Under the pieces are notes generated by a model. That model saw nothing but the letters and a program-made list of their open reading frames with translations, was not told where the DNA came from and ran no database searches. 64,000 bases of DNA from Hydrurus foetidus. Taxonomy: Eukaryota. Numbering within the stretch: position 1 is the stretch's first letter; each line of letters opens with the position of its first letter. The stretch spans positions 4,588,001-4,652,000 of the forward strand of contig UYFQ01000001.1 of NCBI GenBank assembly GCA_900617105.1. Reading direction: 5' to 3'. Positions 5,044 to 63,288 of this stretch are shown here, piece by piece. A program made the translations under genes and the position numbers.

Positions 5044-5687
5044 GTTTGACCCCAAGGCAAAAAAGAATTGGCGTGTTTGGCGGCGCGTTTGACCCGCCGC
5101 ATAACGCGCATATTGCGCTTGCCCAAGTTGCTATCAAAACGCTTGAGCTGGATGTGCTGCACATCATCCCTACCGGCAGGGCTTGGCACAAAGCCAGAAC
5201 GCTCAGCCCGCCAGAGCAGCGCTTGGCCATGACGCAGTTGGCGTTTGGCGATTTGCCTGGCGTGGTGGTGGATGATCGTGAAATCAAGCGCGCAGGGCCG
5301 ACTTTCACCGTAGACACGCTGCTGGCGCTACAGGCTGAACATCCTGCTGCGCAGCTTTATCTCATCATGGGCGCCGACCAGTTTGCTGCATTTGGGCAAT
5401 GGCACCAGTGGCAAACGATACTGCAAACCGCTATAATATGTATAGCTGCTCGCGCCCGTATTATTTGGCCTAAAGACCAATTTGACGCTTATAATGAGGC
5501 TCAAAATCGGCTTTTGGAGCTGCCTTTGCCCGAAATGGCGGTCAGCGCCACCCAAATTCGTCAGTTACTGGCGGCCGCCGCAAGCGCCGGCTTAGGCGAA
5601 AATCAGGCTATCGCTGACTTGTTGCCTGCACCTGTTGCGCGTTATATTGCCCAACATCAGCTTTATCAGACAGCTCTGCCACACTAG
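5034..5687 (+). CDS. nadD: nicotinate-nucleotide adenylyltransferase
   Basis: [14 protein letters not shown] (HxxH), LIMGAD, VSATQIR. Conserved nadD-rsfS-rlmH-maf-rng order. Confidence 0.93.
5430..5485 (-). repeat. dispersed ~50-bp repeat, copy 1 (inside nadD)
   Basis: Reverse complement reads ...taggccaaataatacGGGCGCGAGCAGCTATAcatatTATAGC. Confidence 0.85.
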
Positions 5688-5709
5688 TTTTACTTTATAA
5701 AGATACCGA

Positions 5710-6555
5710 ATGAATACAAACGCGAATAGCTCAGTCAGGTCTGCCGCCGTAGAAAAGAAAGACGTGCAAAAACTGCAGCGCGCCATCATCGATGGGCTGG
5801 AAGACGTGAAGGGGCAAGACATTGTGGTGTTTGACACCGAGCACATCACGTCGCTGTTTGAGCGGGTCATCATTGCGTCTGGCACGTCAAATCGCCAAAC
5901 CAAAGCGCTGGCCGCCAGCGTGCGTGACGCCGTGCGCGATGCAGGCTTTGGCAAGCCGCGTATTGAAGGTGAAGAAAACGGCGAGTGGATCATTGTGGAT
6001 TGTGGCGCGGCTGTGGCGCACATCATGCAGCCCACAATTCGCCAGTACTACCACCTCGAAGAGCTGTGGGGCGATAAGCCGATCAAGCTCAAGCTCGGTG
6101 CGCCTGCGCCGCTGGTGAAGGCTGCGAAAATTGAAGTTGAGCCTGAGCCGGTTGTGAAAGTGAAAACAGTAAAAAGCGTGGCGGGCAAAAAAGTGGCGGC
6201 TAAAAAATCTGGCAAGGCTTCCAAAAAGGCGTTGGGCAAGCCTGAAGTCAAAACGCCCGTGCGCATACCCACCACCACAGTTGACTCCAGCTACGTCGGC
6301 AGAATTGGCAAAACCAACGACTGGACGGCCAAGCGAAACGCGACTGAAGTTGCTGCAGAGCCGGTGCCCGTAGCGCGCAAGCCGGCTGCAAAATCAGCAG
6401 TCAAGACGCCCATCGTCAAAGTACCGGTGGCGAAAAAAGTAGCTGCTAAAAAAGTAGCCCTGAAAACCGCTGCAAAAGCTGCCACCAAGAGTGCTGCCAA
6501 AAAACCTGCGCTTAGAAAGCCAGCAACAAAAACTGCTGCTCCGCGCAGCAAATGA
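5710..6555 (+). CDS. rsfS: ribosome silencing factor RsfS with long Lys/Ala/Pro-rich C-terminal tail
   Basis: [13 protein letters not shown]...[11 protein letters not shown]...WIIVDCG...YYHLEELWG, followed by about 150 aa of KKVAAKK-type low complexity. Confidence 0.92.
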
Positions 6556-7019
6556 GGCTGACGATAGTCGCCGTTGGCCTGAAGGTGCCCGACTGGGCGC
6601 AAACCGCTTACGACGACTACGCCAAACGCTTTCCGCCTGAAATTAAAGTTGAGCTGAAAGCTGTTAAAACCGAGCCGCGCGCGTCCAAAACACTCGATAC
6701 GCTTTTGCTGGCCGAAAAGTTGCGGATAGAAGCGGCAATTCCACGCGGCACGCATGTCGTTGCGCTGGACGAGCGCGGTACCAACGTCACCACGGTCGCG
6801 CTGGCTGAGCGGCTCAAAGCCTGGCAACTGTCGGGCGACGATGTGGCGATTGTAATTGGCGGGCCAGATGGGCTGGATGCCGGTTTTAAAAAAGCGGCGC
6901 ATGAACGTTTGCGTTTGTCCGATTTAACACTACCGCATGCGATGGTGCGGGTGCTGCTCATTGAACAGCTCTACCGCGCGTGGAGCATCACAATCAATCA
7001 TCCGTACCACAGAGAATGA
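6552..7019 (+). CDS. rlmH: 23S rRNA (pseudouridine1915-N3)-methyltransferase
   Basis: [32 protein letters not shown]...HPYHRE. Confidence 0.96.
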
Positions 7020-7020
7020 C

Positions 7021-15931: not shown

Positions 15932-16060
15932 AGCTGCCCTAGGTATTCGTTCAATTCTTATTATCGGGGATTGAGGGTCTGCTTTTTACAGCGGCCAGCG
16001 CATTGGTGCCGCTTGAAATTCTTAAGGCCTCTTTTTTGCCGCAATAGTGGCAATATGCGG

Positions 16061-16107
16061 GCTTTAGCCCAATCAATTTAGGCGTGAGCAGCTACGAATA
16101 AAGTAGC
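16061..16107 (+). repeat. dispersed ~50-bp repeat, copy 2 (intergenic)
   Basis: tttagcccaatcaatttaGGCGTGAGCAGCTACgaataaaGTAGC. Confidence 0.85.
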
Positions 16108-16125
16108 GCTTTGACTACAAGAAAG

Positions 16126-35825: not shown

Positions 35826-35929
35826 GTTGGCTCCTAAGATGAGGTTGGTAGAGCGTAGAGTTTTAGGTATTTTGTCAGAAACCAAGTCCCACACCGCTAT
35901 TTGCCCATGATTTCCAGTTCGAGATTCCT

Positions 35930-38464
35930 TTGACGCTAACCGCCAACCCTGCAAATGCACTTCTTTTGCCCGGCAACGCGGGCGCGCAATGGCCCAATGC
36001 CATCGCGCAGCTGCACAGCGTTATGCGCATCAGGCAAGCCCATACCTCGCGTGTGGTGGTGCTGGTGCCGTTCGCCCAACTCATGGCTGAGGCCAAGGGC
36101 GCATGGGCTTCGTTTTGCATGCGGCAGTTGCAGCCCAGTGCCTTTGTACCGCGATTTGAAACCACCTCTAATTGGGCTGGCGCAGTGCGCGGCTTTGCGT
36201 ATGGCCCGGAAGATTTGCAACTCGATGTTGCCCACGACGCGCTGACCGCTGCCAGCTTGCTGGCGCGCGCGGGCTTAAGTGCCCAGCAACACACGCTGCA
36301 GGGCCGCTTGCTGGAAGCCGCCTGGTCGCTCGCCAAAGTGGCCGCGGCGCAACCCCCGAAACAACGCTTGGCCTGGGGTGCGCAAATGGCTTTGCAAATC
36401 GATGGCGGCATGGCGTCAATTGCTCTCGAATTAGAGCTGGCGCTGGCGCGAATTGCGTTGGCTTGGGCGGCAGCTAGCAGTTATCCAACCGATGTGCTGT
36501 TCAACGCAGAAGTTGATGCCGAACTGGATTTACTGGTAGTGTTGGACGGCTTTCAATCTGAGCCCTTGGTCGAGGCCCTGAAAACTCATTTTTCTGACCG
36601 GGCGGTGTCCATCACGCTCAACACGCTTGCGCAGCCAGGCCAGCTTGGTCTGCATGCTGCGCAAGACCTGGAAGACGAAGCGCACCGTGCAACGGCTTGC
36701 GTACTGGCCCACATAGCTGCTGGCCGCGCCCCCGTGGGGCTGGTGGCGCAAGACCGACTGCTGACGCGACGAGTAGGCGCGCTGCTGGCGGGGTTGGGGG
36801 TGCCGGTGCGCGATGAAACCGGCTGGACGCTGTCGACCACGCGCGCCGCCGCCACATTGATGACCTGGCTGCGCGCCATGCCATGGGACGCATCAACTGA
36901 CGCGGTGCTGGACGCCTTAAAAAACGCGCCCGCCTTTGATGCAGCCGCTGTGTCGACATTTGAAGCCGCCCTGCGCAAAACCGGGTTGCGGCGTTGGCGC
37001 ACAGTGCCGGTTGTGCAGCCTGAGTTTGCGGCCATTGCCACGCAGTTTGAAGCGTTTAGCAGCACACTGCAGCGCCCACGCCCGCTGGCTGATTGGCTGG
37101 CCGATTTGCGCGCTGCCTTGCAAGCTGCCGGGCTTTTGGCGCTGATGGTGGTCGATGCCGCCGGCATCAAAGTAGTAGCGGCGCTGCACCTTGAGCAGGC
37201 CAGCGAACTCACGGCCCGGTTCAATCCCCGCTTAAGCCTGGCTGATTTCACCGCTTGGGCCATGCAAGCGCTTGAAGCCGCTACCTTTGCACCCGCCCAT
37301 CCGCCGCACGCCGCCGTGGTCATTTTGCCGCTGAGCCAACTGCTGGGCAGGCCGATGCAAGCCGTGGTGTTGCCGGGCTGCGATGAAGTGCGCCTGGCGG
37401 TGTCGCCCGAGCCGCCAGGCCAGTGGACAGCAGCGCAGCGCGTGTTGCTGGGCTTGCCAAACCGGGCGCAGCTGGCCCAAGCGCTGCAGGCCGCGTGGCA
37501 ACACGCCTTGCGCATGCCGCATCTGGACGTGCTGTGGCGAGTCAGTGAGGGCGGTGAGCGCTTGATGCCCAGCGGCTTTATACAAGCGCTGCAACTGCTG
37601 CAACCGCAAGCGCCGGCATTTGATGCGCGTCCCCAACGCCAGCTGCCTGCATTACCCACGCCGCCGCCGCAGCCCACCGGGCAAGCGCTGCCCATCAGCA
37701 CCCTGTCAGCCAGCGCGTACGAAGACTTGCGACGCTGCCCCTATCGGTTTTTTGCGCTTCGCCTGCTCAAGCTGCAAGAAGCTGACGAGCTGGAGAGCGA
37801 GCTGGGCAAGCGCGACTTCGGCAACTGGCTGCACGCCTTGCTCCATGCTTTTCATGAGGCATTAAAACTGGCTCCAACCCAAGATTTACAGGCGCGAGCA
37901 GCTATGCTTAACATAGCGGCTGAGCAAACTACCCAGGCGCTTGGCTTAACGGCCGAAGAGTTTTTGCCGTTTGCGTCGATCTGGCCCCGGGTTCGCAGCG
38001 GCTACTTGAGCTGGCTGGCCGAACACGAAGCCAGCGGCGCCGCGTACGACCAGGGCGAGGTCTGGAAAAACATGCCGCTTGGCCGTTTGAGCCTGGTCGG
38101 CAAAATCGACCGTATCGACGTTTTGCCGGATGGCAGCCGTTGGGTAATCGACTACAAAACCGAGCCCAGCACTACCACCAAAGCCCGGGTGAAGGACGGC
38201 GGCGAAGACACCCAGCTGGCTTTTTATGCAGCGCTGCTGGCCGACGACACGCTGGCGGCCAGCTACGTTAATTTGGGTGAAACACAAGCCACCACCACTC
38301 ACGCGCAGGACAATATTGTTGAACTGCGCGACGACCTGATTGGCGGCATTTTGAGCGACATGGCGGGCATTGCTGAAGGCCTACCTTTGCTGGCGCTGGG
38401 TGAAGGCAAGGCCTGTGACTATTGCGCCGCACGTGGCTTGTGCCGCAGAGATTTTTTCAAATGA
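35930..38464 (+). CDS. AddB-like PD-(D/E)XK nuclease subunit
   Basis: [24 protein letters not shown]...IDYKT, C-terminal CDYC...LC Fe-S staple cysteines. Confidence 0.85.
37861..37918 (+). repeat. dispersed ~50-bp repeat, copy 4 (inside the addB-like gene)
   Basis: ccaacccaagatttacaGGCGCGAGCAGCTATGcttaaCATAGC. Confidence 0.85.
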
Positions 38465-41400
38465 CCCGCGCCGCCGCCTACACCCACAACGGCGAAAGCA
38501 TCTCGGCTGATGCGTTCTACGCGATTGCCTGCGACCCGCGCCGCAGCGTGGCGGTAGAGGCCTGCGCCGGTGCCGGGAAAACCTGGATGCTGGTGTCGCG
38601 AATCGTGCGGGCGCTGCTCGACGGCAGTGTGCAGCCGCACGAAATTTTGGCCATTACGTTCACTAAAAAAGCTGCCGGTGAAATGCGTGAGCGGCTGCAA
38701 GAGTGGTTAGAAAAGTTTGCCAATGCCGACGACGAAACACTTGATCAAGAACTCAAAATTCGCGGGTTTTATGCTCAAAATGGAGTTAAAAACGACCTGC
38801 AGACTAATAAATACGGGCGCGAGCAGCTATCAAATTTATATCAAAAAGTACTCAGCAGCGGCCGCCCGGTACAAATCAGAACCTTCCACAGCTGGTTTGC
38901 GGCCTTGCTGCGAAGCGCACCGCTGGCGACTTTGCAGCAGATGGGCTTGCCGCTCAATTACGAGCTGCTTGAAGACGACGGCCCGGCCAAGGCTTTGGTT
39001 TGGCGGCGGTTTTACGCAAGCTTGCTGGCTGCGCCCGATTTGAAGGCTGATTTTGAAGCCGTGGTACTCGCGCATGGTCGCTTTCAGGCCACCAAGGCGT
39101 TGCAAAGCGCATTAGACAAGCGAGGAGAATTTTCGCTGGCCGATGCCGTGGGTGTGGTTGACGCCTCGGTTGCGCATTTCACGTCTCATTTTCCAGAATT
39201 TTCTGCGCTTGCCCAGCCTGAAGATGCCTTTCAAAGCGAGTCATGCCGCGCGTTGCTGCTGGCGGCCGCACGGGTGTTGGGCGCTGCCTCTGCGGTTACC
39301 TATGCAGCCAAGGGCGTCGAGCTGGAACAAGCGGTGACTGGCAATGACGCAGCCAAAGGAGTAGCTGCGCTGCTGACGGAGAAAAATACCCCCCGAAAAT
39401 TCAGCGAAAAAATTGCCGGCCTGCCCGTCGTGCGGCAAGCGCAAGACGCTGCCTTGCGCATCGGCGCTGCGATGGCCCAGCACAGCGCATGGCACTATCA
39501 GCAGCGCATGGCGCGCTTGAGTCGGCTACTGCTGGCTAAATTTGCCGCGCTAAAAATCGAGCGCGGCTGGGTCGACATGAACGATGTGGAACGTGCCGCG
39601 CAGGTCATGCTGAGCGATTCGGTGCTGTCAGGCTGGGTACAAGAAAAGCTTGATGCGCGAATTCGGCATTTGATGATTGACGAGTTTCAAGACACCAACC
39701 CGCTGCAGTGGCAGGCGTTGTCCAGCTGGTTGTCGGGCTACGCGGGTGCAGGCGCGGGGAGCAACGCACCCAGCGTCTTCATTGTGGGCGACCCCAAGCA
39801 AAGCATTTACCGCTTTCGCCGCGCCGAGCCGCAAGTGTTTATTGCCGCGCAAAAGTTTGTCAGCCAAGCCCTTGGCGGCGACCTGCTGGCCTGCGACCAT
39901 ACCCGGCGAAGCAGCCTGGCGGTCGTTGGCGCAGTCAACGCGGTGATGGGCGCGGCGACACAGCTAGACGCGTACGAGGGCTTTCGCCCCCACACCACCG
40001 CCGCCAATAGCCCCGGCAGGGTACTGCGATTGCCGCCAATTGCGCGCCAGGACAAGGCCGAGGCGTCGGCGTCGGCGACGGCGACGGCGTCCGTTGGCTG
40101 GCGCGACAGCTTGACCACCCCCCTCGAGCTGCCAGAAGAAACGCTGCGCACGCTGGAAGCGCGGCAAGCGGCGGCTTGGATACAGGATCAGATTGCGGGA
40201 GGTGTTGCGCCGTCTGGCGTGATGGCTTTAAGCCGCAAACGCGCCAGCCTGCTGCCGCTGCAAGCCGAGCTGAGGGCGCTGCATATTGCGGCGCAAATTG
40301 GCGAGAAAACCGAGCTTATTGATTGCTGCGAGGTGCTGGACATCGTTGCGCTGCTCGACGTGCTGGTGTCGCCGTCGCACGACCTGTCGATGGCCAGAGC
40401 CCTGCGCTCACCGCTGTTTAACCTGAGCGATGACGCGCTGGTAAAAATCGTGCTGGCTAAAACCAGCCCGCAGCAATCGTGGTATGACGTGCTATTAAAT
40501 ACTGAGCTGCCCGCGCCCGAATTTATTGGGCTACAAGCTACTTTAATTCAATATAAAGGCTTCGTAGATGCATTGCCGCCGCATGATGCACTGCAGGCGA
40601 TTTATTCTGCTGGTGACGTACTCGCCCGCTTTGCACAGGCGGCACCCGAGGCTGGGCGCGCAGCAGTGTTGTCTAACCTGCGCGCACTGTTGAGTGCGGC
40701 TTTGCAATTGGACGGTGGCCGCTACGCCACGCCCTACGCTTTTGTGCGCGCGCTGAAGGCCGGTGGGCTGCAGGCACCCGCCGCCGTCAACCCGCACGCC
40801 GTGCGTTTGCTGACCATTCACGGCGCCAAAGGCCTGGAGGCCGACACCGTACTGCTGCTAGACACCGACACAGCGCAGCGCAATCCAGAGAGCATGAGCG
40901 TGCTGATCGAGTGGCCCGGTGAAGCTGCTGCCCCGCAAAAGTTTGTGTTTTTGGTCAGCGAAAGCCAGCCGCCCGCCTGCGCGCAGCCGTCTTTGGCGGC
41001 CGAGCAAGCCGCGCGCCAGCGCGAAGAGCTCAACGCGCTTTATGTGGCCATTACCCGCGCAAAAAACACGTTGGTGGTGTCGTCAATTGAGCCGCACCGC
41101 GCTGCGCCCAACAGCTGGTGGCAGCGACTGCACGAGGCCGCCACCCAAGACAGCCTACAAGCCGCGCCCGCCATAAAAATCGATGCGGCGGCAGGGCAAA
41201 ACAACACCTTCATGCTGCCTGAGCTGCCGGTTTTTATCGGCGTGCAGGCAAGCGAGGCCATCGCCGCCGCCGAGCAAGACAGTCTCAGCGCCCGCATTGG
41301 CAAAGCCATGCACCGCCTGCTGGAGTGGGGCGACTTGTCAAGCGGCGCTGCAAGCCAGGTGGCCAAGGCGTTTGCCCTTAGCGCGGAGCAAGCCAGCCAG

Positions 41401-41724
41401 GCGCAAGTAATGGCTGGCCGCATTCGCCATGGCGCTGGCGCTTGGGCGTGGGACGACGCGGCGCTAAGCTGGCGCGGCAACGAGGTGGAGCTGATTCACG
41501 AAGGCCAAACCTTCAGGCTAGACCGCTTGGTGCAGCGCAAAGACGCAGGGCACAACGGCCACTGGTGGGTGCTGGACTACAAGTCTGCATCTAACCCGCA
41601 GCGCCAGGCCGAGCTGGTAGAAAAGATGCAAAGCTATGTAGCAGCGTTGCGTTGCATTTACCCCGATCAAACGGTGAAAGCGGCTTTTTTGACCGCTGAT
41701 GGAAACCTGTTGCCGGCAGGCTGA
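38461..41724 (+). CDS. AddA-like UvrD helicase-nuclease
   Basis: ACAGAGKT, ITFTKKAAGEM, IDEFQDT, GDPKQSIYRFR, TIHGAKGLE, YVAITRA, C-terminal RLDRL...LDYKS. Confidence 0.9.
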   Translation: MTRAAAYTHNGESISADAFYAIACDPRRSVAVEACAGAGKTWMLVSRIVRALLDGSVQPHEILAITFTKKAAGEMRERLQEWLEKFANADDETLDQELKIRGFYAQNGVKNDLQTNKYGREQLSNLYQKVLSSGRPVQIRTFHSWFAALLRSAPLATLQQMGLPLNYELLEDDGPAKALVWRRFYASLLAAPDLKADFEAVVLAHGRFQATKALQSALDKRGEFSLADAVGVVDASVAHFTSHFPEFSALAQPEDAFQSESCRALLLAAARVLGAASAVTYAAKGVELEQAVTGNDAAKGVAALLTEKNTPRKFSEKIAGLPVVRQAQDAALRIGAAMAQHSAWHYQQRMARLSRLLLAKFAALKIERGWVDMNDVERAAQVMLSDSVLSGWVQEKLDARIRHLMIDEFQDTNPLQWQALSSWLSGYAGAGAGSNAPSVFIVGDPKQSIYRFRRAEPQVFIAAQKFVSQALGGDLLACDHTRRSSLAVVGAVNAVMGAATQLDAYEGFRPHTTAANSPGRVLRLPPIARQDKAEASASATATASVGWRDSLTTPLELPEETLRTLEARQAAAWIQDQIAGGVAPSGVMALSRKRASLLPLQAELRALHIAAQIGEKTELIDCCEVLDIVALLDVLVSPSHDLSMARALRSPLFNLSDDALVKIVLAKTSPQQSWYDVLLNTELPAPEFIGLQATLIQYKGFVDALPPHDALQAIYSAGDVLARFAQAAPEAGRAAVLSNLRALLSAALQLDGGRYATPYAFVRALKAGGLQAPAAVNPHAVRLLTIHGAKGLEADTVLLLDTDTAQRNPESMSVLIEWPGEAAAPQKFVFLVSESQPPACAQPSLAAEQAARQREELNALYVAITRAKNTLVVSSIEPHRAAPNSWWQRLHEAATQDSLQAAPAIKIDAAAGQNNTFMLPELPVFIGVQASEAIAAAEQDSLSARIGKAMHRLLEWGDLSSGAASQVAKAFALSAEQASQAQVMAGRIRHGAGAWAWDDAALSWRGNEVELIHEGQTFRLDRLVQRKDAGHNGHWWVLDYKSASNPQRQAELVEKMQSYVAALRCIYPDQTVKAAFLTADGNLLPAG
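38790..38845 (+). repeat. dispersed ~50-bp repeat, copy 5 (inside the addA-like gene)
   Basis: cctgcagactaataaatacGGGCGCGAGCAGCTATcaaatttATATC. Confidence 0.85.
40490..40545 (-). repeat. dispersed ~50-bp repeat, copy 6 (inside the addA-like gene)
   Basis: Reverse complement: tgtagcccaataaattcGGGCGCGGGCAGCTcagtatttaaTAGCA. Confidence 0.88.
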
Positions 41725-41835
41725 GCCAGGCGCTGCGGCGCTATCTGTTCGATGGGCCAGGGCAGGGCACTTGGCGTGGCAAGGTCGGTCAAATCTCAAA
41801 AAAGTGCCTGAAAACGGCCTTTTTCTGAATAATTA

Positions 41836-41886
41836 GTGCCTGTAGCCCAATAAATTCGGGCGCGAGCAGCTCATTATTTAATAGCA
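41836..41886 (+). repeat. dispersed ~50-bp repeat, copy 7 (intergenic)
   Basis: gcctgtagcccaataaattcGGGCGCGAGCAGCTcattatttaaTAGCA. Confidence 0.9.
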
Positions 41887-41902
41887 TTTAAAATGGTGTA
41901 GT

Positions 41903-43204
41903 TTGAAAGATTATTTGACCCAGCCTTCTACTAACTCTCCTGGCCAACGCACGGCAGTCATCATCGGCGGCGGGCCTGCAGGCTTGATGGCAGCCGAAGT
42001 GTTGGCAGCCAGCGGGCAAAACATTTCCGTTCAGTTGTACGACGCTATGCCCTCGGTGGGCCGTAAATTTTTGCTGGCGGGCAAAGGCGGGCTGAACCTG
42101 ACCCATGCCGAACCCGCTGAGCCATTTTTAAGCCGATATGGCGAACAGCAATTGTCGGTAGCGCCTCTGCTGGCAAGCTTTGGCGCCAGCCAGCTGCGCG
42201 ACTGGGCGCAGGCACTCGGCGTGCCCACTTTTGTCGGCAGCTCGGGTCGTGTGTTTCCGGTTGACATGAAGGCCGCGCCGCTGCTGCGGGCCTGGCTGCA
42301 TCGGCTGCGGGGCTCGGGCGTACGGTTTTTTATGCGGCATCGCTGGCTGGGCTGGGCCGATGACGGCAGCCTGGGGTTCTCAACACCCGCCGGACAAGTC
42401 AATATCGCCGCTGATGTGGTGGTGTTGGCGCTTGGCGGCGGCAGTTGGTCGCGCTTGGGGTCCGACGGCGCTTGGGTCAGCTTGCTGGCCGAGCGCGGGG
42501 TAGCGGTTGCGCCGCTGTTGCCCGCCAACTGCGGCTTTGACGTGGCTGGCTGGACGCCGCATTTTTTAAGCAAATTCGCTGGCCAGCCGCTCAAATCGGT
42601 GGCGATCAGTTTTACCGACTCGTCGGGCCGCAGCTTTGTGCGCAAGGGCGAATTTGTGGCCACCGCGACCGGTGTGGAAGGCAGTTTGATCTACGCTGCC
42701 AGCAGCTTGCTGCGGGGTGAAATTGCGCAAAACGGCAGCGCCACTTTCACGCTTGATTTATTGCCAGACAAAACGCCGGCCCAAGTGCTGGCAGCGGTAG
42801 CGCACCCGCGCGGCTCGCGTTCGCTGACCAGCCACCTGAAAAGCCGCCTGAACATTGACGGCATCAAAGCCGCGCTGCTCTACGAGCTTTTGAGCAAATA
42901 TGCGTTGAACAGCCCCGCGCTGCTGGCTACGGCCATTAAGGGACTGCCCATCACGCTGGTGGCAACCCGGCCGATTGACGAAGCCATCAGCAGCGCAGGC
43001 GGCGTGACTTTCACAGCACTGAGCGCCAGCTTGGGGCTGGCGCCGTCAGCCAAGCTGCCAATGCCCGTTTTTTGTGCGGGGGAAATGCTGGACTGGGAAG
43101 CGCCCACAGGCGGCTACTTGCTGACAGCTTGTTTTGCCAGCGGCATGGCGGCTGCGCGCGGGGCGCTCGAGGCGCTTGAAATTCAGTTAAATGGTGCTAA
43201 ATAG
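41903..43204 (+). CDS. YhiN/HI0933-like (TIGR03862-type) flavoprotein
   Basis: IIGGGPAGLMAA, GRKFLLAGKGGLNLT, AISSAGGV, GEMLDWEAPTGGYLL. Confidence 0.88.
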   Translation: MKDYLTQPSTNSPGQRTAVIIGGGPAGLMAAEVLAASGQNISVQLYDAMPSVGRKFLLAGKGGLNLTHAEPAEPFLSRYGEQQLSVAPLLASFGASQLRDWAQALGVPTFVGSSGRVFPVDMKAAPLLRAWLHRLRGSGVRFFMRHRWLGWADDGSLGFSTPAGQVNIAADVVVLALGGGSWSRLGSDGAWVSLLAERGVAVAPLLPANCGFDVAGWTPHFLSKFAGQPLKSVAISFTDSSGRSFVRKGEFVATATGVEGSLIYAASSLLRGEIAQNGSATFTLDLLPDKTPAQVLAAVAHPRGSRSLTSHLKSRLNIDGIKAALLYELLSKYALNSPALLATAIKGLPITLVATRPIDEAISSAGGVTFTALSASLGLAPSAKLPMPVFCAGEMLDWEAPTGGYLLTACFASGMAAARGALEALEIQLNGAK

Positions 43205-43214
43205 TACCGAATAA

Positions 43215-43265
43215 GGCTAACTATTGTTTAAATACGGGCGCGAGCAGCTACATATTTAATAGCTA
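43215..43265 (+). repeat. dispersed ~50-bp repeat, copy 8 (intergenic)
   Basis: ttgtttaaatacGGGCGCGAGCAGCTAcatatttaaTAGCT. Confidence 0.88.
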
Positions 43266-43416
43266 AAATCGACGCGAGGCGGGTTTTAACCGCGTTGGCG
43301 AGCGCTTTGAGCGCTGCAATCTTGTCACTGGCGTCCGCTTACAATATCTGCCATCGGGCGCTGGCCGCAGCGCCTAGGTTTTTTAATGGTTTTTTACCTA
43401 ATTTCTGGAGTTTGCC

Positions 43417-43758: not shown

Positions 43759-43829
43759 GCCGGGCGCTCAGCTCATTTAGTCGCCCGCGCCACCCGCTCG
43801 TTAATTGGACTTATCGGAATCGCCGCCTC

Positions 43830-46745: not shown

Positions 46746-49268
46746 GTGCCGTCCAACTACTCTGACCACTACAAGCTAGCCCTGCAAGCGCGGAATCTGT
46801 TTACAGATCGCGCCTGCGAGGTTTTGCCCGTCATTGGCAAGGCTATTTCAGACTGTCTTACGGATCTAGTCAACAAGCCCGGCAGTGCCAGAGATATGCA
46901 ATACCACCGGGACGCTCAACTGGCGTTTCAGGCGGGGGGTGCTAGCTGGCGAACCGGCTTGCTGTCGGTGTGGCGAACACCAGATTCGACAGCCTCCAGT
47001 TCGGGATCAGCGCAATTTGGTCTTGAAACTACTCTCTTTGAGCTGGTTAATAACGACGTGATGGACGATCAAATCCTCGCGTCGAGGCTGGCCTTGCGGC
47101 TGCTGGATTTTGCTAGCTGGGAGCTCAACGATTTGCGCTTGCGCATTCAGCACCTGGAGCAAGTTGCTGAGCTGCCCAAAAAAGACATTTTGCGGCCTGA
47201 AATTCTGGCCCGTCTGGTTATTGAGCAATGGGTAGCGGCGAAGCTGCCGCGCCCAACCTGGGCGTTGGTACAAGACTTGGTGCAAACGCTGCTGGCCGAG
47301 CACTTGCTCGTGGCGTACCACGCAGCCAATGAGTTTTTGGTATTGAACGGCGTGATGGCTGAAATCGATTTGCGGCCTCTTGTCAAGCGCTCGCTGTCGT
47401 CGCCCACCGACAAAGTCGATGCGCTAAAACTGTCCGTAGCTGGTCGGCCAAATGGTTCAGGTTCAGGTTCAAGTTCAAGTTCAAGTTCAAGTTCAAGTTC
47501 AAGCAGGCAAGCCATGGGCGCGAGCGCGGGTTCCAATAACCGCGGTGGCGCATCGTACGGCGCGGGTAACGGCGCGCCGGGCGGCAGCCTGATACGGCGT
47601 GTAGGCGGAGGAAGTTTTTCAAACAGCGACTCCGGCGGCGACTCCAACAGCGATAGGGGCGCGCGCGCAAGCTATGGTGGAAATCGGCCAAGGCAAGGCG
47701 ATTCCATGGGTCATTCGCAGCAAGGTAGTCCGCAGGAAGAAACCCGGATGCAGACTGCGACCACGCCACTGGCGCGAGCCCGCATGCGTGCCCAAGGGGT
47801 GATGGGCACCCTAAAACGGTTGCTCACCAATCAGGTTGCTGGATTTCACGATACACGAGCCTCGCGACCTTCGCATCAGTTGGTTCAAGCCATGAACGGC
47901 GCCGCAAGGTCAAGTTCAAGCGGCTCCAGCCAGACGCTTCAAATGGATGCGCCTGGCCAGTTTTATGGTTCGGTTCACGTTGAGCAGGCTGCCAGTGCCA
48001 TGCGCCAGCGCACGGCTGAGCTTAAAAAAGCCGCCACCAGCTCAAGTGAAAAAGCAACTATTGAAATTGTTGCGTTGATGTTTCAGGCCATCTTGGCGGA
48101 AGATCGCATTCCTGCGGCAATTCGCGTGTGGTTTGCGCGGCTCCAAATGCCAGTGCTGCGTTTGGCGCTATCAGAGCCCGAGTTTTTTGGCTCGCTTGAG
48201 CACCCGGCTCGCCAACTGATTGACCGCATGGGGTCTTGCGTGCTCGGCTTTAACGCCGACATATCGGGCGGCGCGCTTGAAGTTGAGGTCAAGCGTGTGG
48301 TGCAAGTGATCGAGCAGTACCCTGAAACCGGCAGGCGCGTGTTTCAGCTGGTGTATGACGAGTTTCAAAAATTTCTGTCCAAGTTTTTAAGTGAAACCGG
48401 CGGCGCTGCGCGTGCTGTGTCTGTCGCGCAGCAAATGGAACAAAAAGAAACGATGGCGATTCAGTTCACCATCGAGATGCGGAACATGCTCAAAGACATT
48501 CCGGTGCGCGACGAGATTCGGGAATTTTTGTACAAAGTATGGGCCGAGGCGCTGGCTATTTCTGCCATGCGCAGTGGTCCGCAACATGAAGAAACGCTGG
48601 TGTTAAAGCGTGCCTCGGCTGACTTGGTGTGGGCCTCCAGCGCCAAGCCCAATCGTGCAGACCGTGCAAAAGTAATTGCAGATTTACCCAAACTGCTGCA
48701 ATTGTTGCGCTCTGGTATGACCATGCTGGGACTGGACGCAGCCGCTCAAGACGAGCACATCAAAATCATCAGCGACACGCTGGCAGATGCTTTTTTAAGT
48801 AAAAACAGTGCGATTGACCCAGCGCGCATTGATCTAATGGCCAAGCGCCTGGTGAATTTGGAGGACTACCTGTCTGACGAAGACATCGGCGACTTGCCGC
48901 TGGACACCGACGCGTTGGTGATGATGTTGGGCATTGATACCACCGACATAGAGGTGATTTCTGACGGTGGCAGCCAGCCAAGTGACGCCATGCGTGCCTG
49001 GGCGGGCGAGCTGCAGTTGGGTGCGTGGTTCAGCCTGGACCATAACGGTCGCGTGGCACACGTGCAGTTTGCGTGGCGCAGTGACCGCAAGCAACTTCAC
49101 CTTTTTGCTTCAAGTGAAGGTAAAAATTACTTGATTCAGGCGCGGCGACTGGCGGCGTATCTGCAGGCGGGCCTGCTGGTGCCGACAGAAGAAGAAGCAT
49201 TGACCGTTCGCGCCACCCGCGAGGCACTGGTCAAACTTGAGGCTAACCCAGAGCGGCTATTGGGCTAG
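46746..49268 (+). CDS. DUF1631-like protein with Gly/Ser-rich insertion
   Basis: ARLQMPVLRLAL...FF....HPARQLIDR helical core and a C-terminal LGAWF...LHLF domain. Family assigned from memory of the motif. Confidence 0.7.
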   Translation: MPSNYSDHYKLALQARNLFTDRACEVLPVIGKAISDCLTDLVNKPGSARDMQYHRDAQLAFQAGGASWRTGLLSVWRTPDSTASSSGSAQFGLETTLFELVNNDVMDDQILASRLALRLLDFASWELNDLRLRIQHLEQVAELPKKDILRPEILARLVIEQWVAAKLPRPTWALVQDLVQTLLAEHLLVAYHAANEFLVLNGVMAEIDLRPLVKRSLSSPTDKVDALKLSVAGRPNGSGSGSSSSSSSSSSSSRQAMGASAGSNNRGGASYGAGNGAPGGSLIRRVGGGSFSNSDSGGDSNSDRGARASYGGNRPRQGDSMGHSQQGSPQEETRMQTATTPLARARMRAQGVMGTLKRLLTNQVAGFHDTRASRPSHQLVQAMNGAARSSSSGSSQTLQMDAPGQFYGSVHVEQAASAMRQRTAELKKAATSSSEKATIEIVALMFQAILAEDRIPAAIRVWFARLQMPVLRLALSEPEFFGSLEHPARQLIDRMGSCVLGFNADISGGALEVEVKRVVQVIEQYPETGRRVFQLVYDEFQKFLSKFLSETGGAARAVSVAQQMEQKETMAIQFTIEMRNMLKDIPVRDEIREFLYKVWAEALAISAMRSGPQHEETLVLKRASADLVWASSAKPNRADRAKVIADLPKLLQLLRSGMTMLGLDAAAQDEHIKIISDTLADAFLSKNSAIDPARIDLMAKRLVNLEDYLSDEDIGDLPLDTDALVMMLGIDTTDIEVISDGGSQPSDAMRAWAGELQLGAWFSLDHNGRVAHVQFAWRSDRKQLHLFASSEGKNYLIQARRLAAYLQAGLLVPTEEEALTVRATREALVKLEANPERLLG
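47454..47501 (+). repeat. hexanucleotide microsatellite (GGTTCA)3(AGTTCA)5
   Basis: Direct reading. Encodes GSGSGS followed by poly-Ser. Confidence 0.95.
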
Positions 49269-59079: not shown

Positions 59080-59829
59080 TTAGCCTGCGCACTGCAAACT
59101 GACTGCTTGCATGGTTTTGCCGGTTTTGTCGTCCAGCACTACCAGATTGATCTGCCTGGGGTGGCCGGGCGTGGCGGCAATGCTGCGAAAGTTCAGCTTT
59201 TGCGGGGCTGTGCCGCCCCCCGGGTACTGCCCGGCTTGCACCAGTTGGCGCACAACGAAGTCGTGCTTTAAAAATTCGCCTTTGTTCTCACCAGACAGCA
59301 CTTTAGAGTTGTGGTCGTGCTCTGTTACTGTCCAGTAGGCCGACCAGTTGCCTGCACCCGGTGCAGGCACAACGCTGGCTTCAAACTGGTCAGTGCTTGA
59401 TTGCTTTAAAACGATGTTGGCAAGGGCAGGGTCTTTGCTGCTTGGAGTGCCGCCCCAGCGTGGCCAGTCTTTACCGTCTAGTACGGCTTGCGGGGTGTAA
59501 ATACCGCGCAAATTATTTTTGGCTGCGAGGTCTCGCTGGCGCTGGGTGTAGGCTGGCGCGGCAAACCGGTCCACCCAGCCGATGTAGTCCCAGTAGCCCA
59601 CGTGAAACGCCTGCACCACTGCCCCACCACTGGCTGATGTGCCCTTGAGCGTAGACGCCCATTTATCTGCTGGCGGGCAAGAACTGCAGCCTTCCGACGT
59701 GTAAAGCTCAATGACAGGCGTGATGGTGGCGCTGGAGGTCACCGAGCACTGATTTGACTGTGCAAAAGCACCTGTAGCCCAATAAATCAAGGCGCAAGCA
59801 GCTATAAATTTAGTAGTATTTTTCAGCAT
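59080..59829 (-). CDS. DUF1223-type thioredoxin-like exported protein
   Basis: IELYTSEGCSSCPPAD, FHVGYWDYIGWVDRFA, YTPQ, GENKG..L.HDFVVR. Confidence 0.85.
   Translation of the reverse strand: MLKNTTKFIAACALIYWATGAFAQSNQCSVTSSATITPVIELYTSEGCSSCPPADKWASTLKGTSASGGAVVQAFHVGYWDYIGWVDRFAAPAYTQRQRDLAAKNNLRGIYTPQAVLDGKDWPRWGGTPSSKDPALANIVLKQSSTDQFEASVVPAPGAGNWSAYWTVTEHDHNSKVLSGENKGEFLKHDFVVRQLVQAGQYPGGGTAPQKLNFRSIAATPGHPRQINLVVLDDKTGKTMQAVSLQCAG
59768..59818 (+). repeat. dispersed ~50-bp repeat, copy 9 (encodes the DUF1223 signal peptide)
   Basis: cctgtagcccaataaatcaaGGCGCAAGCAGCTAtaaatttagTAGT. Confidence 0.87.
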
Positions 59830-59966: not shown

Positions 59967-62399
59967 ATGCAAAAAATAATTCACCAAATCGCCTTAGAAA
60001 TCAAAGTACAAGACCACCAAGTTAAAACCGCGGTTGAACTGCTGGACGGCGGCGCTACTGTGCCATTTATAGCGAGGTACCGCAAAGAAGCCACCGGCGG
60101 GCTGGACGACATTCAGCTGCGGGAGCTGGACTTCCGCTTGGGCTACCTGCGCGAGCTGGAAGAACGCCGTGAAGCCGTTTTAGGCAGCATTGAAAGCCAA
60201 GGCAAGCTTACGCCTGCGCTGACCGAGGCAATAGCGCTGGCCGCCACCAAACAAGACCTGGAAGATTTGTACTTACCCTTCAAGCAAAAACGCCGCACCA
60301 AAGGCCAGATTGCACGGGAAGCAGGCATTGAGCCGCTGGCCGATGCACTGTTTGCCAATCCTTTGCTCGTGCCTTTAGACGAAGCTGCGGCTTACGTGAA
60401 GCTTGAAAAAAACGAGCAGGGCGATGACTTCACCACTGTGCAAGCCGTGCTGGACGGCGTGCGCGATATTTTGAGCGAGCGCTGGGCCGAAGACGCGAAC
60501 CTAGTGCAAATGCTGCGCGGCTGGTTGTGGTCTGAAGGGCTGTTCACGTCAAAACTGGTGCCGGGCAAAGACGAAAACGCACCTGATAACGCCAAGTTTC
60601 GCGATTATTTTGCTTATGACGAGCCAATTGGCCGTGTGCCGTCGCACCGGGCGCTGGCTGTTTTCAGGGGCCGTGGGTTAGAGATATTGGATGCCAAGTT
60701 GCTGCTGCCTGAGCCGCCTTTGTCTCTAGATGCGCCCATCCCGAAAGGCCCGGTAGTTTCGTTAGCTGAGGGAAAAATCGCCTTGCACTTGGGCTGGTCA
60801 CACAAAGCTCGCCCCGCCGATGATTTGATTCGCAAATGCGTAGCGTGGGCCTGGCGCGTCAAGCTCAGTTTGTCGCTCGAGCGTGACTTGTTCACCCGGC
60901 TGCGGGAAGACGCTGAAAAAGTTGCCATCAAGGTGTTTGCTGACAATCTGCGCGACCTGCTGTTGGCCGCACCCGCTGGGCCGCGCGTGGTGATGGGGCT
61001 GGACCCCGGCATACGCACAGGCGTGAAGGTGGCGGTGGTCGACAGCACCGGCAAGCTGGTTGAAACCGCCACCGTGTTCCCACACGAGCCGCGCAAAGAC
61101 TGGGATGGGTCGCTGTACACGCTTGCCAAACTTGCCGAAAAGCATGGCGTGAACCTGATCGCCATCGGCAACGGCACAGCCAGCCGTGAGACAGATAAAT
61201 TGGCTGCAGATTTGATCAAAATGCTTCAAAAAGGCTCAAAAAATGCATCAAATGAGGCTGTGGCCCAATTAAAACAGGCGCGAGCAGCTACTGATTTCAT
61301 AGTAGAGAAAGTAGTCGTCAGTGAGGCAGGCGCATCAGTCTACTCAGCCAGCGAGTTCGCTAGTTCAGAAATGCCCGACGTGGACGTGAGCCTGCGCGGC
61401 GCAGCCAGCATCGCTAGACGCCTGCAAGACCCACTGGCCGAGCTGGTCAAAATTGACCCGAAATCCATCGGCGTAGGCCAATACCAGCACGACGTGAACC
61501 AAAGCGATTTGGCGCGCAGTTTGGACACCGTGGTCGAAGACTGCGTGAACAGCGTCGGCGTCGACCTGAACACCGCCAGCGTGCCGCTGCTGGCGCGTGT
61601 GTCTGGCTTGAGCCAAACCGTGGCCAAGTCTGTCGTGCGCTGGCGAGATGAAAACGGCGCATTTGCGTCCCGCGCTGACTTGCTCAAGGTGACTGGCCTG
61701 GGCGCTAAAACCTTTGAGCAAAGCGCTGGCTTTTTGCGTTTGCGCTCTAGCACCAATCCGCTCGACATGACCGGCGTTCACCCTGAAACCTACGCCGTTG
61801 TTGAGCAAATCATGCTGCACACCGGCAAGCCGGTGGCCGAGCTGATGGGTCGCGCCGACACGCTCAAAACCCTCAAACCCGAGCTGTTTGCAAACGACAA
61901 GTTTGGCGTGATAACCGTTAAAGACATCTTGCTGGAACTAGAAAAGCCAGGCCGCGACCCGCGCCCCAGTTTTAAAGTCGCCCGCTTTAACGATGGCGTA
62001 GAAGACATCAAAGACCTGCGTGAAGGCATGGAACTAGAAGGCACGGTCAGCAACGTAGCAGCCTTCGGCGCATTCATCGACATTGGCGTACATCAAGACG
62101 GCTTGGTACACGTGAGCCAGCTGAGTCACAAGTTCACGACTGATGCGCGTGAGGTGGTCAAAACTGGCGACATCGTGAAGGTGAGAGTGACCGAGATTGA
62201 CGTTGCGCGAAAGCGGATTGGGCTCACCATGAAGCTTGGGGAGGCGCCTTCGAGGCGAGATGCGCCACGGGACAATCGATTCGAGGCATCGAGGCCCGGG
62301 CATGGTCAAAACCCAAGCCGCAGCAGGCAAGAAGCACCTCAGGCCGGGTCGTCGGCCATGGCCTCGGCGTTTGGAAAGCTGGCGGGGTTAAAGAAGTAA
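59967..62399 (+). CDS. tex: Tex family RNA-binding transcriptional accessory protein
   Basis: GATVPFIARYRKE, DPGIRTG, IGNGTASRET, SEAGASVYSAS, C-terminal S1 domain. Start MQKII at 59967. Confidence 0.95.
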   Translation: MQKIIHQIALEIKVQDHQVKTAVELLDGGATVPFIARYRKEATGGLDDIQLRELDFRLGYLRELEERREAVLGSIESQGKLTPALTEAIALAATKQDLEDLYLPFKQKRRTKGQIAREAGIEPLADALFANPLLVPLDEAAAYVKLEKNEQGDDFTTVQAVLDGVRDILSERWAEDANLVQMLRGWLWSEGLFTSKLVPGKDENAPDNAKFRDYFAYDEPIGRVPSHRALAVFRGRGLEILDAKLLLPEPPLSLDAPIPKGPVVSLAEGKIALHLGWSHKARPADDLIRKCVAWAWRVKLSLSLERDLFTRLREDAEKVAIKVFADNLRDLLLAAPAGPRVVMGLDPGIRTGVKVAVVDSTGKLVETATVFPHEPRKDWDGSLYTLAKLAEKHGVNLIAIGNGTASRETDKLAADLIKMLQKGSKNASNEAVAQLKQARAATDFIVEKVVVSEAGASVYSASEFASSEMPDVDVSLRGAASIARRLQDPLAELVKIDPKSIGVGQYQHDVNQSDLARSLDTVVEDCVNSVGVDLNTASVPLLARVSGLSQTVAKSVVRWRDENGAFASRADLLKVTGLGAKTFEQSAGFLRLRSSTNPLDMTGVHPETYAVVEQIMLHTGKPVAELMGRADTLKTLKPELFANDKFGVITVKDILLELEKPGRDPRPSFKVARFNDGVEDIKDLREGMELEGTVSNVAAFGAFIDIGVHQDGLVHVSQLSHKFTTDAREVVKTGDIVKVRVTEIDVARKRIGLTMKLGEAPSRRDAPRDNRFEASRPGHGQNPSRSRQEAPQAGSSAMASAFGKLAGLKK
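61255..61304 (+). repeat. dispersed ~50-bp repeat, copy 10 (inside tex)
   Basis: ggctgtggcccaattaaaacaGGCGCGAGCAGCTActgatttcaTAGT. Confidence 0.85.
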
Positions 62400-62451
62400 A
62401 GCTTGGCGCATCCACTAAATCCAAAATGCCATTCATAGCCTGTAAGGCCAC

Positions 62452-62865
62452 ATGACCATTTACCCAGCAACGGAAGAAGAAGTCCGCGTTAGCGGCATTG
62501 GCCGTCGGCTTCGTCAATACAACTATGCCTTCGTCGGTGAGTATCCAGAAGAACTACCGATTCGATTGAACGCCAGCGATGGGCAAGGAAACGTTGTCGG
62601 GGGCCTTCGGGCGATTGTGTTTTTGTACGGGCTTCGGATAGAAGTCCTGTTTGTAGACGAAAGTCAGCGCGGGACTGGTGTCGGAACTGCGCTGCTTTTG
62701 GAAGCTGAGCGGATTGCTCGTGAGGTGGGAGCAAAGAACGCAGCGCTTGAGACGTTCGAGTTTCAGGGCCCTGGCTTTTATGCCAGGCACGGGTATGTTG
62801 AGACTGGCCGGATTGCTAACTATGCAGGTGAGTTTTATCTTGTCACCATGGCAAAAAACTTGTAA
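62452..62865 (+). CDS. GNAT family N-acetyltransferase
   Basis: LFVDESQRGTGVGTALL, LETFEFQGPGFYARHGY. Confidence 0.88.
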   Translation: MTIYPATEEEVRVSGIGRRLRQYNYAFVGEYPEELPIRLNASDGQGNVVGGLRAIVFLYGLRIEVLFVDESQRGTGVGTALLLEAERIAREVGAKNAALETFEFQGPGFYARHGYVETGRIANYAGEFYLVTMAKNL

Positions 62866-63239
62866 GTCATTTGGCTTGGGTTGCGCTTCGCTGGTCAGAC
62901 CCACGATGCTAAAAAAATTGTCTTCGAAAATTTGGTGCGAAATCTTTTTTAAAAATTAGCGGCTTGTTTAAGCAATGTTTTGTACGTGTCCAGAGTGACA
63001 ACCGCAGTCAATTTCCTTTTTCCAAACGATCTGGAGCTAATCCAATGCCTGCTTTGACTGGCTCGCAGTTGTATGCATTGTTGAATGTAGAAGATACGAG
63101 GAAATCATTGCTGTCATCGAGGCTTTCAGCCGGTATTCATGCACCCGCCGGTGCTTGCAACGGAGCGCGTACATGCATTGCGGGTCAAGCCCGCGATGAC
63201 GTGCAATGAGTTGACTAGCTTCGTTTGTATATAAAATAT

Positions 63240-63288
63240 GCGCTTAGCCCAATGAACATGGGCGCGAGCAGCTCCCGAATAAATAGCG
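63240..63288 (+). repeat. dispersed ~50-bp repeat, copy 11 (intergenic)
   Basis: gcttagcccaatgaacatGGGCGCGAGCAGCTcccgaataaaTAGC. Confidence 0.87.

What the first reader, a model, noticed from the sequence alone, without database searches (positions are those of the whole stretch)
5430..63288. Dispersed ~50-bp repeat family that colonises protein-coding genes in four reading frames
Seen: at least 11 copies of a consensus ~tgtagcccaat(a)aatwc-GGGCGCGAGCAGCT-A-N(7-9)-TAGC, at ~5430(-), 16061(+), 30505(-), 37861(+), 38790(+), 40490(-), 41836(+), 43215(+), 59768(+), 61255(+) and 63240(+). The 3' part is a GCTA..TAGC hairpin whose stem extensions co-vary (GCTAC/GTAGC, GCTATG/CATAGC, GCTATA/TATAGC). 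Seven copies sit inside intact ORFs as AT-rich patches. They read as QARAA/MALAA (addB-like, tex, MATE), YGREQLS (addA-like), IAARAR/IAACAL (nadD, DUF1223) and ELPAPE (addA-like). Known: REP elements are usually extragenic, and Rickettsia palindromic elements are the classic case of repeats inserted in frame into genes. Inference: this is a mobile or converting element, or a DNA-level protein-binding signal, that donates peptide sequence. The density of about one per 6 kb suggests hundreds per genome.
Basis: partly seen in the sequence, partly recalled or inferred. Interest (0 to 1): 0.8.

Follow-up and report, generated by a model that had tools for sequence, protein, structure and literature searches.

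The report
Long DNA signal overwriting Comamonadaceae genes
This repeat is a real DNA motif about 100 bases long, scattered by the hundreds through many Comamonadaceae genomes and written into old protein-coding sites mostly without adding length, and it is likely a protein-read signal that works like the DNA-uptake signals of Neisseria and Haemophilus, though uptake is untested.

Summary
Confirmed: 11 copies plus a partial twelfth; seven lie in genes, in four frames. The nearest genome holds 448 core matches against 15 in the control; the family spans Comamonadaceae. It is mostly not an inserted element. At nadD, addA, addB, MATE and purD sites, orthologues with and without the motif usually have equal length; where length differs it mostly steps by 12 bp in the 5' arm (Tex is a net gain). 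The motif is about 100 bp: a G+C core plus a one-sided arm of AA/TT tracts at 10.5-bp period. The claimed hairpin covariation fails (n=163). Two addA sites on opposite strands are kept or lost together and share a lineage-specific dialect. The resident RAYT flanks a different repeat. Plasmids and atypical DNA are depleted. Best reading: a protein-read double-stranded DNA signal held in place by a lineage-specific factor, most likely biased DNA uptake (0.45). No receptor was found, and competence genes do not track the motif. Fragments were listed unnamed in 2017 (PMC5217627). This scan reported the family before on other DNA (seven notes).

The parts
5426..5497 (-). Motif copy (72-bp PWM frame, 61 bits) inside nadD, antisense; encodes [13 protein letters not shown]
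   Evidence: anchor spacing 50 aa in 27 of 30 orthologues; aligns without gaps to NadD of solved structure
16040..16111 (+). Motif copy (42 bits), intergenic between the O-antigen ligase and GNAT genes
   Evidence: kept in G001 with 17 differences in 72 bp and the same score
30502..30573 (-). Motif copy (38 bits) inside the MATE transporter gene, sense; encodes SMALAAILFIA
   Evidence: G017 orthologue lacks the motif at equal length
37850..37921 (+). Motif copy (49 bits) inside addB-like, sense; encodes [11 protein letters not shown]
   Evidence: anchor spacing 40 aa in 23 of 29 genus orthologues with scores from -41 to +49 bits
38775..38846 (+). Motif copy (51 bits) inside addA-like (site 1), sense; encodes KYGREQLSNLY
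   Evidence: spacing 58/62/66/70 aa in 73 of 77 orthologues
40487..40558 (-). Motif copy (49 bits) inside addA-like (site 2), antisense; encodes LLNTELPAPEFIGL
41818..41889 (+). Motif copy (65 bits), intergenic between addA-like and HI0933-like genes
   Evidence: 94% complementary over 49 nt to the 40487 copy
43196..43267 (+). Motif copy (35 bits; the HMM matches only the 3' half) just after the HI0933-like gene
59750..59821 (+). Motif copy (51 bits) over the N-terminus of the DUF1223 gene, antisense; encodes IAACALIYWAT
61236..61307 (+). Motif copy (60 bits) in a variable loop of the Tex YqgF domain, sense; encodes QLKQARAATDFI; a net length gain
   Evidence: loop 15-42 aa across 31 orthologues
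63220..63291 (+). Motif copy (56 bits), intergenic after a GNAT gene
2942..3013 (+).
   Evidence: also in G047, absent at equal length in G043
35930..41724 (+). addB-like and addA-like host genes, carrying three copies; used for the cross-lineage tests

Best explanation
The repeat is a roughly 100-bp double-stranded DNA motif (a G+C-rich core plus a one-sided arm of helically phased AA/TT tracts) that sits at old, fixed sites and changes there by base substitution, and it is likely read by a lineage-specific protein, most likely at the DNA-uptake step of natural transformation, which would drive near-matches toward the preferred sequence. SHOWN: fixed register; no hairpin covariation; in-place overlay on conserved coding sites; sites kept or lost together within a lineage; a shared lineage dialect at unlinked sites on opposite strands; no strand bias seen; depletion in plasmids and atypical DNA. 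INFERRED: a trans-acting factor whose loss lets all sites decay and whose change shifts the dialect; that the factor bends or wraps the arm; that 12-bp gains add one helical turn while keeping frame. UNTESTED: that the factor is an uptake receptor. Probability of 'protein-read signal kept in place' in general is about 0.75; of the uptake version about 0.45.
For: In-place origin. nadD anchor spacing is 50 aa in 27 of 30 orthologues while scores run from -38 to +71 bits; addB is 40 aa in 23 of 29. The addB helix aligns to motif-free genomes of other genera, mostly with gaps of at most a few residues. addA site 1 at its shortest length (58 aa) has the motif in 5 of 12 sequences, and 73 of 77 lengths lie on a 58+4n ladder. 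The rare codon ATA is used in 21 of 23 nadD orthologues at the site, against 32 of 411 Ile codons in window genes. Shape readout. The strongest position dependencies are adjacent AA/TT swaps, with no hairpin pair among the top 45. The AA/TT period is 10.5 bp upstream, amplitude 0.126 outside the training frame against 0.017 further upstream. Trans factor. The two addA sites are both present or both absent in 37 of 45 de-replicated orthologues. Their variable 11-bp segment is 0.545 identical within a genome against 0.365 shuffled (0 of 10,000; 22 lineages), with no such effect in 15 motif-free lineages. Synonymous divergence in the motif is not raised (0.15-0.19 against 0.22). No identical copies and no effect of distance on similarity. 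Uptake-like distribution. 56 of 164 copies are coding, with strong frame bias (27/13/9/5/2/0); N. meningitidis DUS is 34.5% in ORFs with frame bias (PMC2817400, passages). Orientation in co-directional gaps is 33 same, 35 opposite; strands are mixed along two single-contig chromosomes. Density is 0.27 against 1.38 per 4 kb in the most atypical against the most typical fifth of G001 windows, and 0.48 against 1.0 in G047. A 257-kb R. ferrireducens plasmid has 0 matches and pPNAP01 (353 kb) has 2 real-looking ones, although both hosts are motif-rich in PMC5217627. USS is a core with phased T-tracts on one side (PMC3458573, passages). Acidovorax temperans carries the motif (L016) and is naturally transformable (PMC4212676, passages).
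Against: No receptor was identified. ComEC (72 of 75 genomes) and ComP-like pilins (72 of 75) are present whatever the motif count, and the pilins show no group that tracks the motif; lineages that lost the motif keep an intact comEC. At about 65-70 bits and 100 bp the motif is far larger than DUS (10-12 bp) or USS. Spacing is close to random (CV 0.83-0.99). Verminephrobacter, where selective uptake was suggested, shows only a different motif pair in the 2017 table. Copy pairs are slightly more alike than a first-order Markov null (99th percentile 0.74 vs 0.71 and 0.79 vs 0.75), and one window pair 1.3 kb apart is 94% alike over 49 nt, which suits conversion. The Tex copy is a net gain of 19-27 residues. 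The origin of intergenic copies (about two thirds) was not shown. Lineages are related and differ in G+C, so the P values overstate.
Confidence: 0.45

Rival explanations
1. The motif is a binding and wrapping site for an intracellular chromosome protein (a gyrase-like strong site, a nucleoid protein or a topoisomerase loader) and is kept by direct selection at each site.
For: AA/TT phasing spans about 120 bp, near the 130-bp gyrase footprint with 47-bp periodic arms (PMC6379681, section 23). Copies are enriched between convergent genes: 23 copies in 50 gaps of at least 30 bp against 12 in 84 divergent gaps; 44 convergent against 4 divergent in A. ebreus (PMC5217627). In-place change, co-decay and dialects fit equally well.
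Against: The E. coli gyrase motif is symmetric and degenerate (PMC6379681); this one is one-sided with near-invariant bases, and its dyad centres (-5, +7, +18) fall on a base. Counts range from 0 to 289 within one genus, odd for a housekeeping function. No replichore pattern was seen. Convergent enrichment is also expected where no promoter constrains the DNA.
Confidence: 0.25
2. An old REP/MITE-derived repeat is homogenised and spread by ectopic gene conversion or an unknown template, overwriting partly matching sequence; no protein needs to read it.
For: Lineage dialects are classic concerted evolution. Motif regions diverge about twice as fast as background in close pairs (0.094 vs 0.047; 0.172 vs 0.081), often in runs. 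There is a mild excess of similar pairs and one near-identical inverted pair. A palindromic form exists in A. ebreus (PMC5217627).
Against: Copies average only 56-61% identity, none are identical, and neighbours under 2 kb apart are no more alike in G001 or G047. The arm alternates AAA and TTT blocks and fades gradually over five to six turns with no boundary. The raised divergence is in the arm and spacer, not the core, and synonymous divergence is not raised. No template locus was found, but none was searched for genome-wide.
Confidence: 0.18
3. It is an active non-autonomous mobile element that inserts in frame, like Rickettsia palindromic elements or RAYT-mobilised REPs.
For: Tex loop length gain; mostly intergenic, near gene ends; copy number varies widely; 68 of 122 viral-contig matches score at least 20 bits.
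Against: No length change at most coding sites; the same three addA positions and frames recur across 77 orthologues; no covarying stem; no sharp ends; the single RAYT is flanked by another repeat and is present in 74 of 75 genomes regardless of motif count; plasmids nearly empty.
Confidence: 0.07
4. It is a packaging or transfer-start signal (pac-like site of a transducing particle, or oriT-like site) that drives itself by biased gene transfer.
For: A specific core with a one-sided wrapped arm resembles terminase or relaxosome sites (own knowledge); the same drive logic would give in-place accumulation.
Against: No candidate gene was tested; two conjugative plasmids carry almost none; no match beyond chance in the named phage collection (low sensitivity).
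Confidence: 0.05

Closest known systems
DNA uptake sequences: USS of Pasteurellaceae and DUS of Neisseriaceae (PMC2817400, PMC3458573, passages; PMC3630211, search listing only)
   Same: Hundreds of dispersed copies on both strands; about a third in ORFs with frame bias; overlay on existing codons; core plus helically phased A/T tracts on one side (USS); scarce in foreign DNA; lineage dialects.
   Different: About 100 bp and 65-70 bits against 10-30 bp; about 200 per Mb at most; lost in sister lineages that keep comEC; 12-bp arm extensions; no uptake assay and no receptor.
Unnamed spaced motifs of Tong, Schliekelman and Mrazek 2017 (PMC5217627; section 13 read, two Rhodoferax supplement rows of 140 seen; author names recalled)
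   Same: GCTTAT(N)5AAGCG (A. ebreus), ATAGCT(N)22CAAAAG (P. naphthalenivorans) and CTAGC(N)24TATTA (R. ferrireducens) fall in register on this motif at -12..+3, -19..+14 and -17..+16 (my mapping onto).
   Different: In the section read they are separate short pairs of unknown function, not joined into one family; no full length, phased arm, orthologue test or mechanism.
REP/BIME/REPIN with RAYT, and Rickettsia palindromic elements (PMC3733652, passages)
   Same: Short dispersed repeat, mostly intergenic and common between convergent genes, with some intragenic copies.
   Different: No covarying stem, no GTAG/CGTC-tagged hairpin, no dimers or clusters as the rule, no linked RAYT, and coding copies mostly replace rather than insert. 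The paper's main text does not mention Acidovorax, Polaromonas, Rhodoferax or Comamonas; its supplements were not opened.
Gyrase motif and strong gyrase sites (PMC6379681, passages and section 23)
   Same: About 120-130 bp with 10.5-10.75-bp phased A/T arms; tendency to lie downstream of genes.
   Different: The gyrase motif is symmetric and degenerate; this one is asymmetric with near-invariant core bases and is present in only some lineages.
VeiPR1 of Verminephrobacter eiseniae (PMC3975124, one passage)
   Same: High-copy palindromic repeat in the same family.
   Different: Described as unique to V. eiseniae; the only pair listed for that genome in PMC5217627 is GGCAG(N)45CTGCC, which does not match. 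The VeiPR1 sequence itself was not seen.

Membership tests
DNA uptake sequence (DUS/USS) | Over-represented, dispersed on both strands without replichore bias | tested here: met
   (origin not located; strands judged by eye in two single-contig genomes)
DNA uptake sequence (DUS/USS) | Arises in place in coding DNA, with reading-frame bias | tested here: met
   Tex is an exception
DNA uptake sequence (DUS/USS) | Depleted in recently acquired DNA | tested here: met
   two plasmids; compositionally atypical windows; trend not monotonic in G047
DNA uptake sequence (DUS/USS) | Host has competence genes, and a receptor that tracks the motif | tested here: inconclusive
   ComEC and ComP-like pilins in 72 of 75 genomes each, with or without motif
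DNA uptake sequence (DUS/USS) | Preferential uptake of DNA that carries the motif | not testable with these tools
   needs an uptake assay; PMC4212676 shows competence in A. temperans but names no sequence in the passages seen
REP/REPIN-RAYT | Stem-loop with compensatory changes | tested here: not met
REP/REPIN-RAYT | Copies flank a cognate RAYT gene | tested here: not met
   six Y1_Tnp loci in five genomes: RAYT flanked by a different inverted repeat in 4 of 5 loci examined; one motif copy nearby in 2 of 6 loci; RAYT in 74 of 75 genomes
Rickettsia palindromic element / in-frame MITE | Copies are insertions relative to empty orthologous sites | tested here: not met
   equal length at nadD, addA, addB, MATE, purD; gain only in Tex; intergenic origin not resolved
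Rickettsia palindromic element / in-frame MITE | Sharp ends, terminal inverted repeats or target duplications, near-identical young copies | tested here: not met
   conservation fades gradually on the 5' side; top pair identity 0.85-0.86; target duplications were not searched for separately
Strong gyrase site | Phased A/T arm at the helical repeat over about 130 bp | tested here: met
   peaks near -79, -68, -58, -48, -37, -26, -6, +17, +29, +42
Strong gyrase site | Degenerate motif symmetric about a 4-bp staggered cut | tested here: not met
   against PMC6379681 section 23
Strong gyrase site | Gyrase binding or cleavage at the site | not testable with these tools
   needs cleavage mapping or gel shift
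Known structured RNA (Rfam) | Match at gathering threshold | tested here: not met
   0 matches in the window

The most novel reading that the evidence does not exclude
Comamonadaceae carry a third, independent and far larger kind of self-recognition signal: a 100-bp wrapped-DNA word read by an unknown protein, strong enough to rewrite conserved residues and codons, to lengthen proteins in 4-residue steps by adding helical turns, to switch dialect genome-wide, and to be turned off in sister lineages that differ by only 10-15% in DNA.
Probability: 0.4. Interest if true: 0.85.

Novelty: new variant of a known kind. Interest (0 to 1): 0.68.

Why it matters
Sequence-specific DNA uptake is established in only two bacterial families. 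A third system in abundant freshwater, soil and wastewater bacteria would change views on gene flow there and give a simple tag for transforming them. Whatever the reader protein is, the family is a natural experiment on a DNA-level force shaping proteins: old sites in housekeeping genes (MnmE, FabD, RNase E, RpoN, MurG, Dxr, IleS, KdtA, PutA) are held to a long motif, and close sister lineages with and without the force exist for direct comparison.

Tried and rejected
Own-genome scan: not possible, no genome is held; G001 and relatives were used, in part only (about 0.34 Mb of G001, 0.47 Mb of G047). Hairpin or RNA structure: no covariation, ordinary folding energies, no Rfam match (the script stopped before the family-level set). 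RAYT: different cognate repeat, near-universal. ComEC and ComP-like presence and pilin grouping: not discriminating. Replichore bias: none seen. Local conversion between neighbours: no distance effect. Hypermutation: synonymous rate not raised. Diversity-generating-retroelement-type rewriting: rejected by reasoning, since both A and T positions of the core are conserved. Function bias of host genes: none evident among 46 ORFs, 13 without a family match. blastn of single copies against plasmids and named phages: nothing beyond chance, low sensitivity. Sequencing runs: no RNA holder listed; contigs laid on 35900-44000 gave nothing usable beyond presence in sediment and biofilm runs. Intergenic filled/empty alleles: not resolved, since most flanks were rearranged. 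Literature: ten searches found no named description of the family; only PMC5217627 lists fragments. Subscription papers and the Pinel thesis were not searchable. PMC2755013 and PMC2442094 (passages) held nothing relevant.
Full report
OBSERVATION. The 11 copies are real and at the stated places. Profiles trained on 127 copies from other genomes recover them and a partial twelfth in purD, with nothing in the reversed window. Seven lie in ORFs with Pfam support, in four frames. Rfam gives no match. The window's genome is not held. Its nearest relative G001 has 448 matches of the 13-mer core against 15 for the reversed pattern. PWM density is 172 per Mb in the window and 148-231 per Mb in stretches of five relatives.

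DISTRIBUTION. The window is probably Polaromonas, an inference from GltB similarity by eye and from motif dialect. Within the genus counts run from 0 to 289 (21 of 25 genomes match); 2 of 16 genomes of other families had one match each. Across the family, 54 of 301 genomes have ten or more matches (my hand count).

ANATOMY. Numbering the first G of the core as +1, the register is fixed: GCGCRAGCAGCTM at +1..+13, nine A/T-rich bases, TAGC at +23..+26, an 11-base variable segment at -10..0, a GGCCTSTAGCSC-like block at -22..-11, then A/T tracts. AA/TT frequency peaks near -79, -68, -58, -48, -37, -26, -6, +17, +29 and +42, with period 10.5 bp upstream. The signal persists outside the training frame (amplitude 0.126 against 0.017 further upstream) and fades without a boundary. 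The tracts are AAA in some copies and TTT in others, and these swaps are the strongest dependencies. Information content is 67-71 bits over 72 positions, uncorrected for sample size. This is the pattern of a site read as double-stranded DNA with a bent arm (inference).

INSERTION OR REPLACEMENT. In nadD the distance between conserved anchors is 50 residues in 27 of 30 orthologues while scores run from -38 to +71 bits; in addB it is 40 in 23 of 29. NadD aligns without gaps across the site to a homologue of solved structure. The addB helix has about the same length in motif-free genomes of other genera; 22 of 30 genomes searched gave a locus. MATE and purD orthologues lack the motif at equal length. 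For addA, 77 full-length orthologues were kept from 110 loci after dropping partial, interrupted and duplicate ones. Only three sites occur, each at one column and frame. Site 1 exists with and without the motif at its shortest length (5 of 12), and 73 of 77 lengths fall on 58, 62, 66 or 70 residues. The addB gains (44, 48) and one nadD gain (54) are also multiples of four residues. Against this, the Tex copy lies in a loop that grows from 15-19 to 38-42 residues, with a truncated copy in the 27-residue class, and intergenic origins were not resolved. One row each and rests on the unpublished genome G048; dropping them changes nothing (nadD 26 of 29).

A TRANS-ACTING FORCE. The two addA sites lie 1.7 kb apart on opposite strands. 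They are both present or both absent in 69 of 77 orthologues and in 37 of 45 after de-replication. Decayed remnants remain in lineages that lost the motif, including one only 13-15% diverged in DNA from motif-rich neighbours. In motif-bearing lineages the variable segment of site 1 matches site 2 of the same genome at 0.545 against 0.365 shuffled; motif-free lineages show no effect. In the window's clade both coding sites read like the intergenic copies (CAATRAATWCGG), while another clade has CCCGTC at both. Relatedness and G+C differences inflate these tests. Synonymous divergence in the motif is not raised, but amino-acid change in its middle part is (0.29 against 0.16 in motif-lost pairs). 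The rare codon ATA is held in 21 of 23 nadD orthologues that matched the peptide pattern. Copies average 56-61% identity, none are identical, and neighbours are no more alike; there is a mild excess of similar pairs over a Markov null.

GENOMIC CONTEXT. With my own crude gene caller, 56 of 164 copies are coding, 103 intergenic and 5 at contig edges; the window and G001 overlap in part. Frames are used 27/13/9/5/2/0. Convergent gaps hold 23 copies in 50 gaps, co-directional 68 in 333, divergent 12 in 84. Orientation is even (33 against 35) and spacing near random. Strands are mixed along two single-contig chromosomes. Compositionally atypical windows are depleted, as are two conjugative plasmids. 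Host genes are ordinary housekeeping genes of all kinds.

SEARCH FOR THE FACTOR. The one RAYT-type gene of these genomes sits beside gltB between repeats of another kind and occurs in 74 of 75 genomes chosen to span high and zero counts. ComEC and ComP-like pilins are each in 72 of 75, and the pilins form no group that tracks the motif. No candidate was found.

MECHANISM. Shown: an old, fixed-register motif that changes in place, is kept or lost lineage-wide and shifts dialect lineage-wide. Inferred: a protein reads it and bends the arm. I commit to uptake-biased drive (0.45). It explains in-place overlay, frame bias, both strands, scarcity in foreign DNA, dialects and easy loss with no need for a benefit at each site. 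USS has the same core-plus-phased-tract plan (PMC3458573, passages), DUS has the same coding share (PMC2817400, passages), and a motif-bearing species is naturally competent (PMC4212676, passages). Rivals: an intracellular wrapping site under selection (0.25; compare PMC6379681, section 23), ectopic conversion of an old repeat (0.18), an inserting element (0.07), a packaging or transfer signal (0.05).

PRIOR KNOWLEDGE. PMC5217627 (section 13 read; supplement rows seen) lists three short spaced pairs that map in register on this motif, unnamed and unconnected; 138 further Rhodoferax rows were not read and may hold more. PMC3733652 does not mention these genera in its main text. Ten literature searches found no named description. 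This scan has reported what appears to be the same family at least seven times on other DNA, with readings from ordinary REP-like repeat to uptake-like signal. I saw those notes after forming my reading, and they are not independent support. The short notes do not mention the phased arm, the 12-bp ladder or the two-site dialect test.

VERDICT. Real, family-wide, unnamed in the literature searched. It works like a DNA uptake sequence, but membership is unproven. It is not a REP, MITE or Rickettsia-type insertion by the tests run. New variant of a known kind; interest 0.68.

Noticed in passing
window 33757-33947: A second, unrelated repeat of about 185 bp just past the rho stop codon; it has many 80-90% identical matches in G001, G005, G017, G043 and G047, with a more frequent 60-bp left part. 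It looks more like an ordinary MITE or REPIN.
   Followed up: no
L406, L407, L409, L410, L411 (next to gltB): A RAYT-type gene found in 74 of 75 family genomes searched, nearly always as one match; in the five loci read it lies beside gltB and in four of them between about 25-bp inverted repeats of its own. It looks domesticated.
   Followed up: partly
L464-L477 (comEC loci): The comEC locus carries one motif copy at the same relative place in 8 of 8 motif-rich genomes and in 0 of 6 motif-poor ones; the competence domain spans more bases in these genomes.
   Followed up: partly
L401:14812-17811: putA of G047 carries three copies in three different frames.
   Followed up: no
L244-L365 (viral contigs): 68 of 122 core matches in viral contigs score at least 20 bits on the full motif, mostly one per contig; whether they lie in phage DNA or in flanking host DNA was not determined.
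   Followed up: partly
window 47455-47502: Hexamer tandem run (GTTCAA-type) inside the DUF1631 gene; this region is only 89% identical to G001.
   Followed up: no
window 40490-40538 and 41838-41886: Two copies 1.3 kb apart in inverted orientation are 94% complementary over 49 nt and share rare variants; possible single conversion event.
   Followed up: partly
G084, G113, G158, G241, G338: Uneven forward and reverse counts (3/14, 3/11, 53/87, 6/14, 7/25) in a few genomes; not explained.
   Followed up: no
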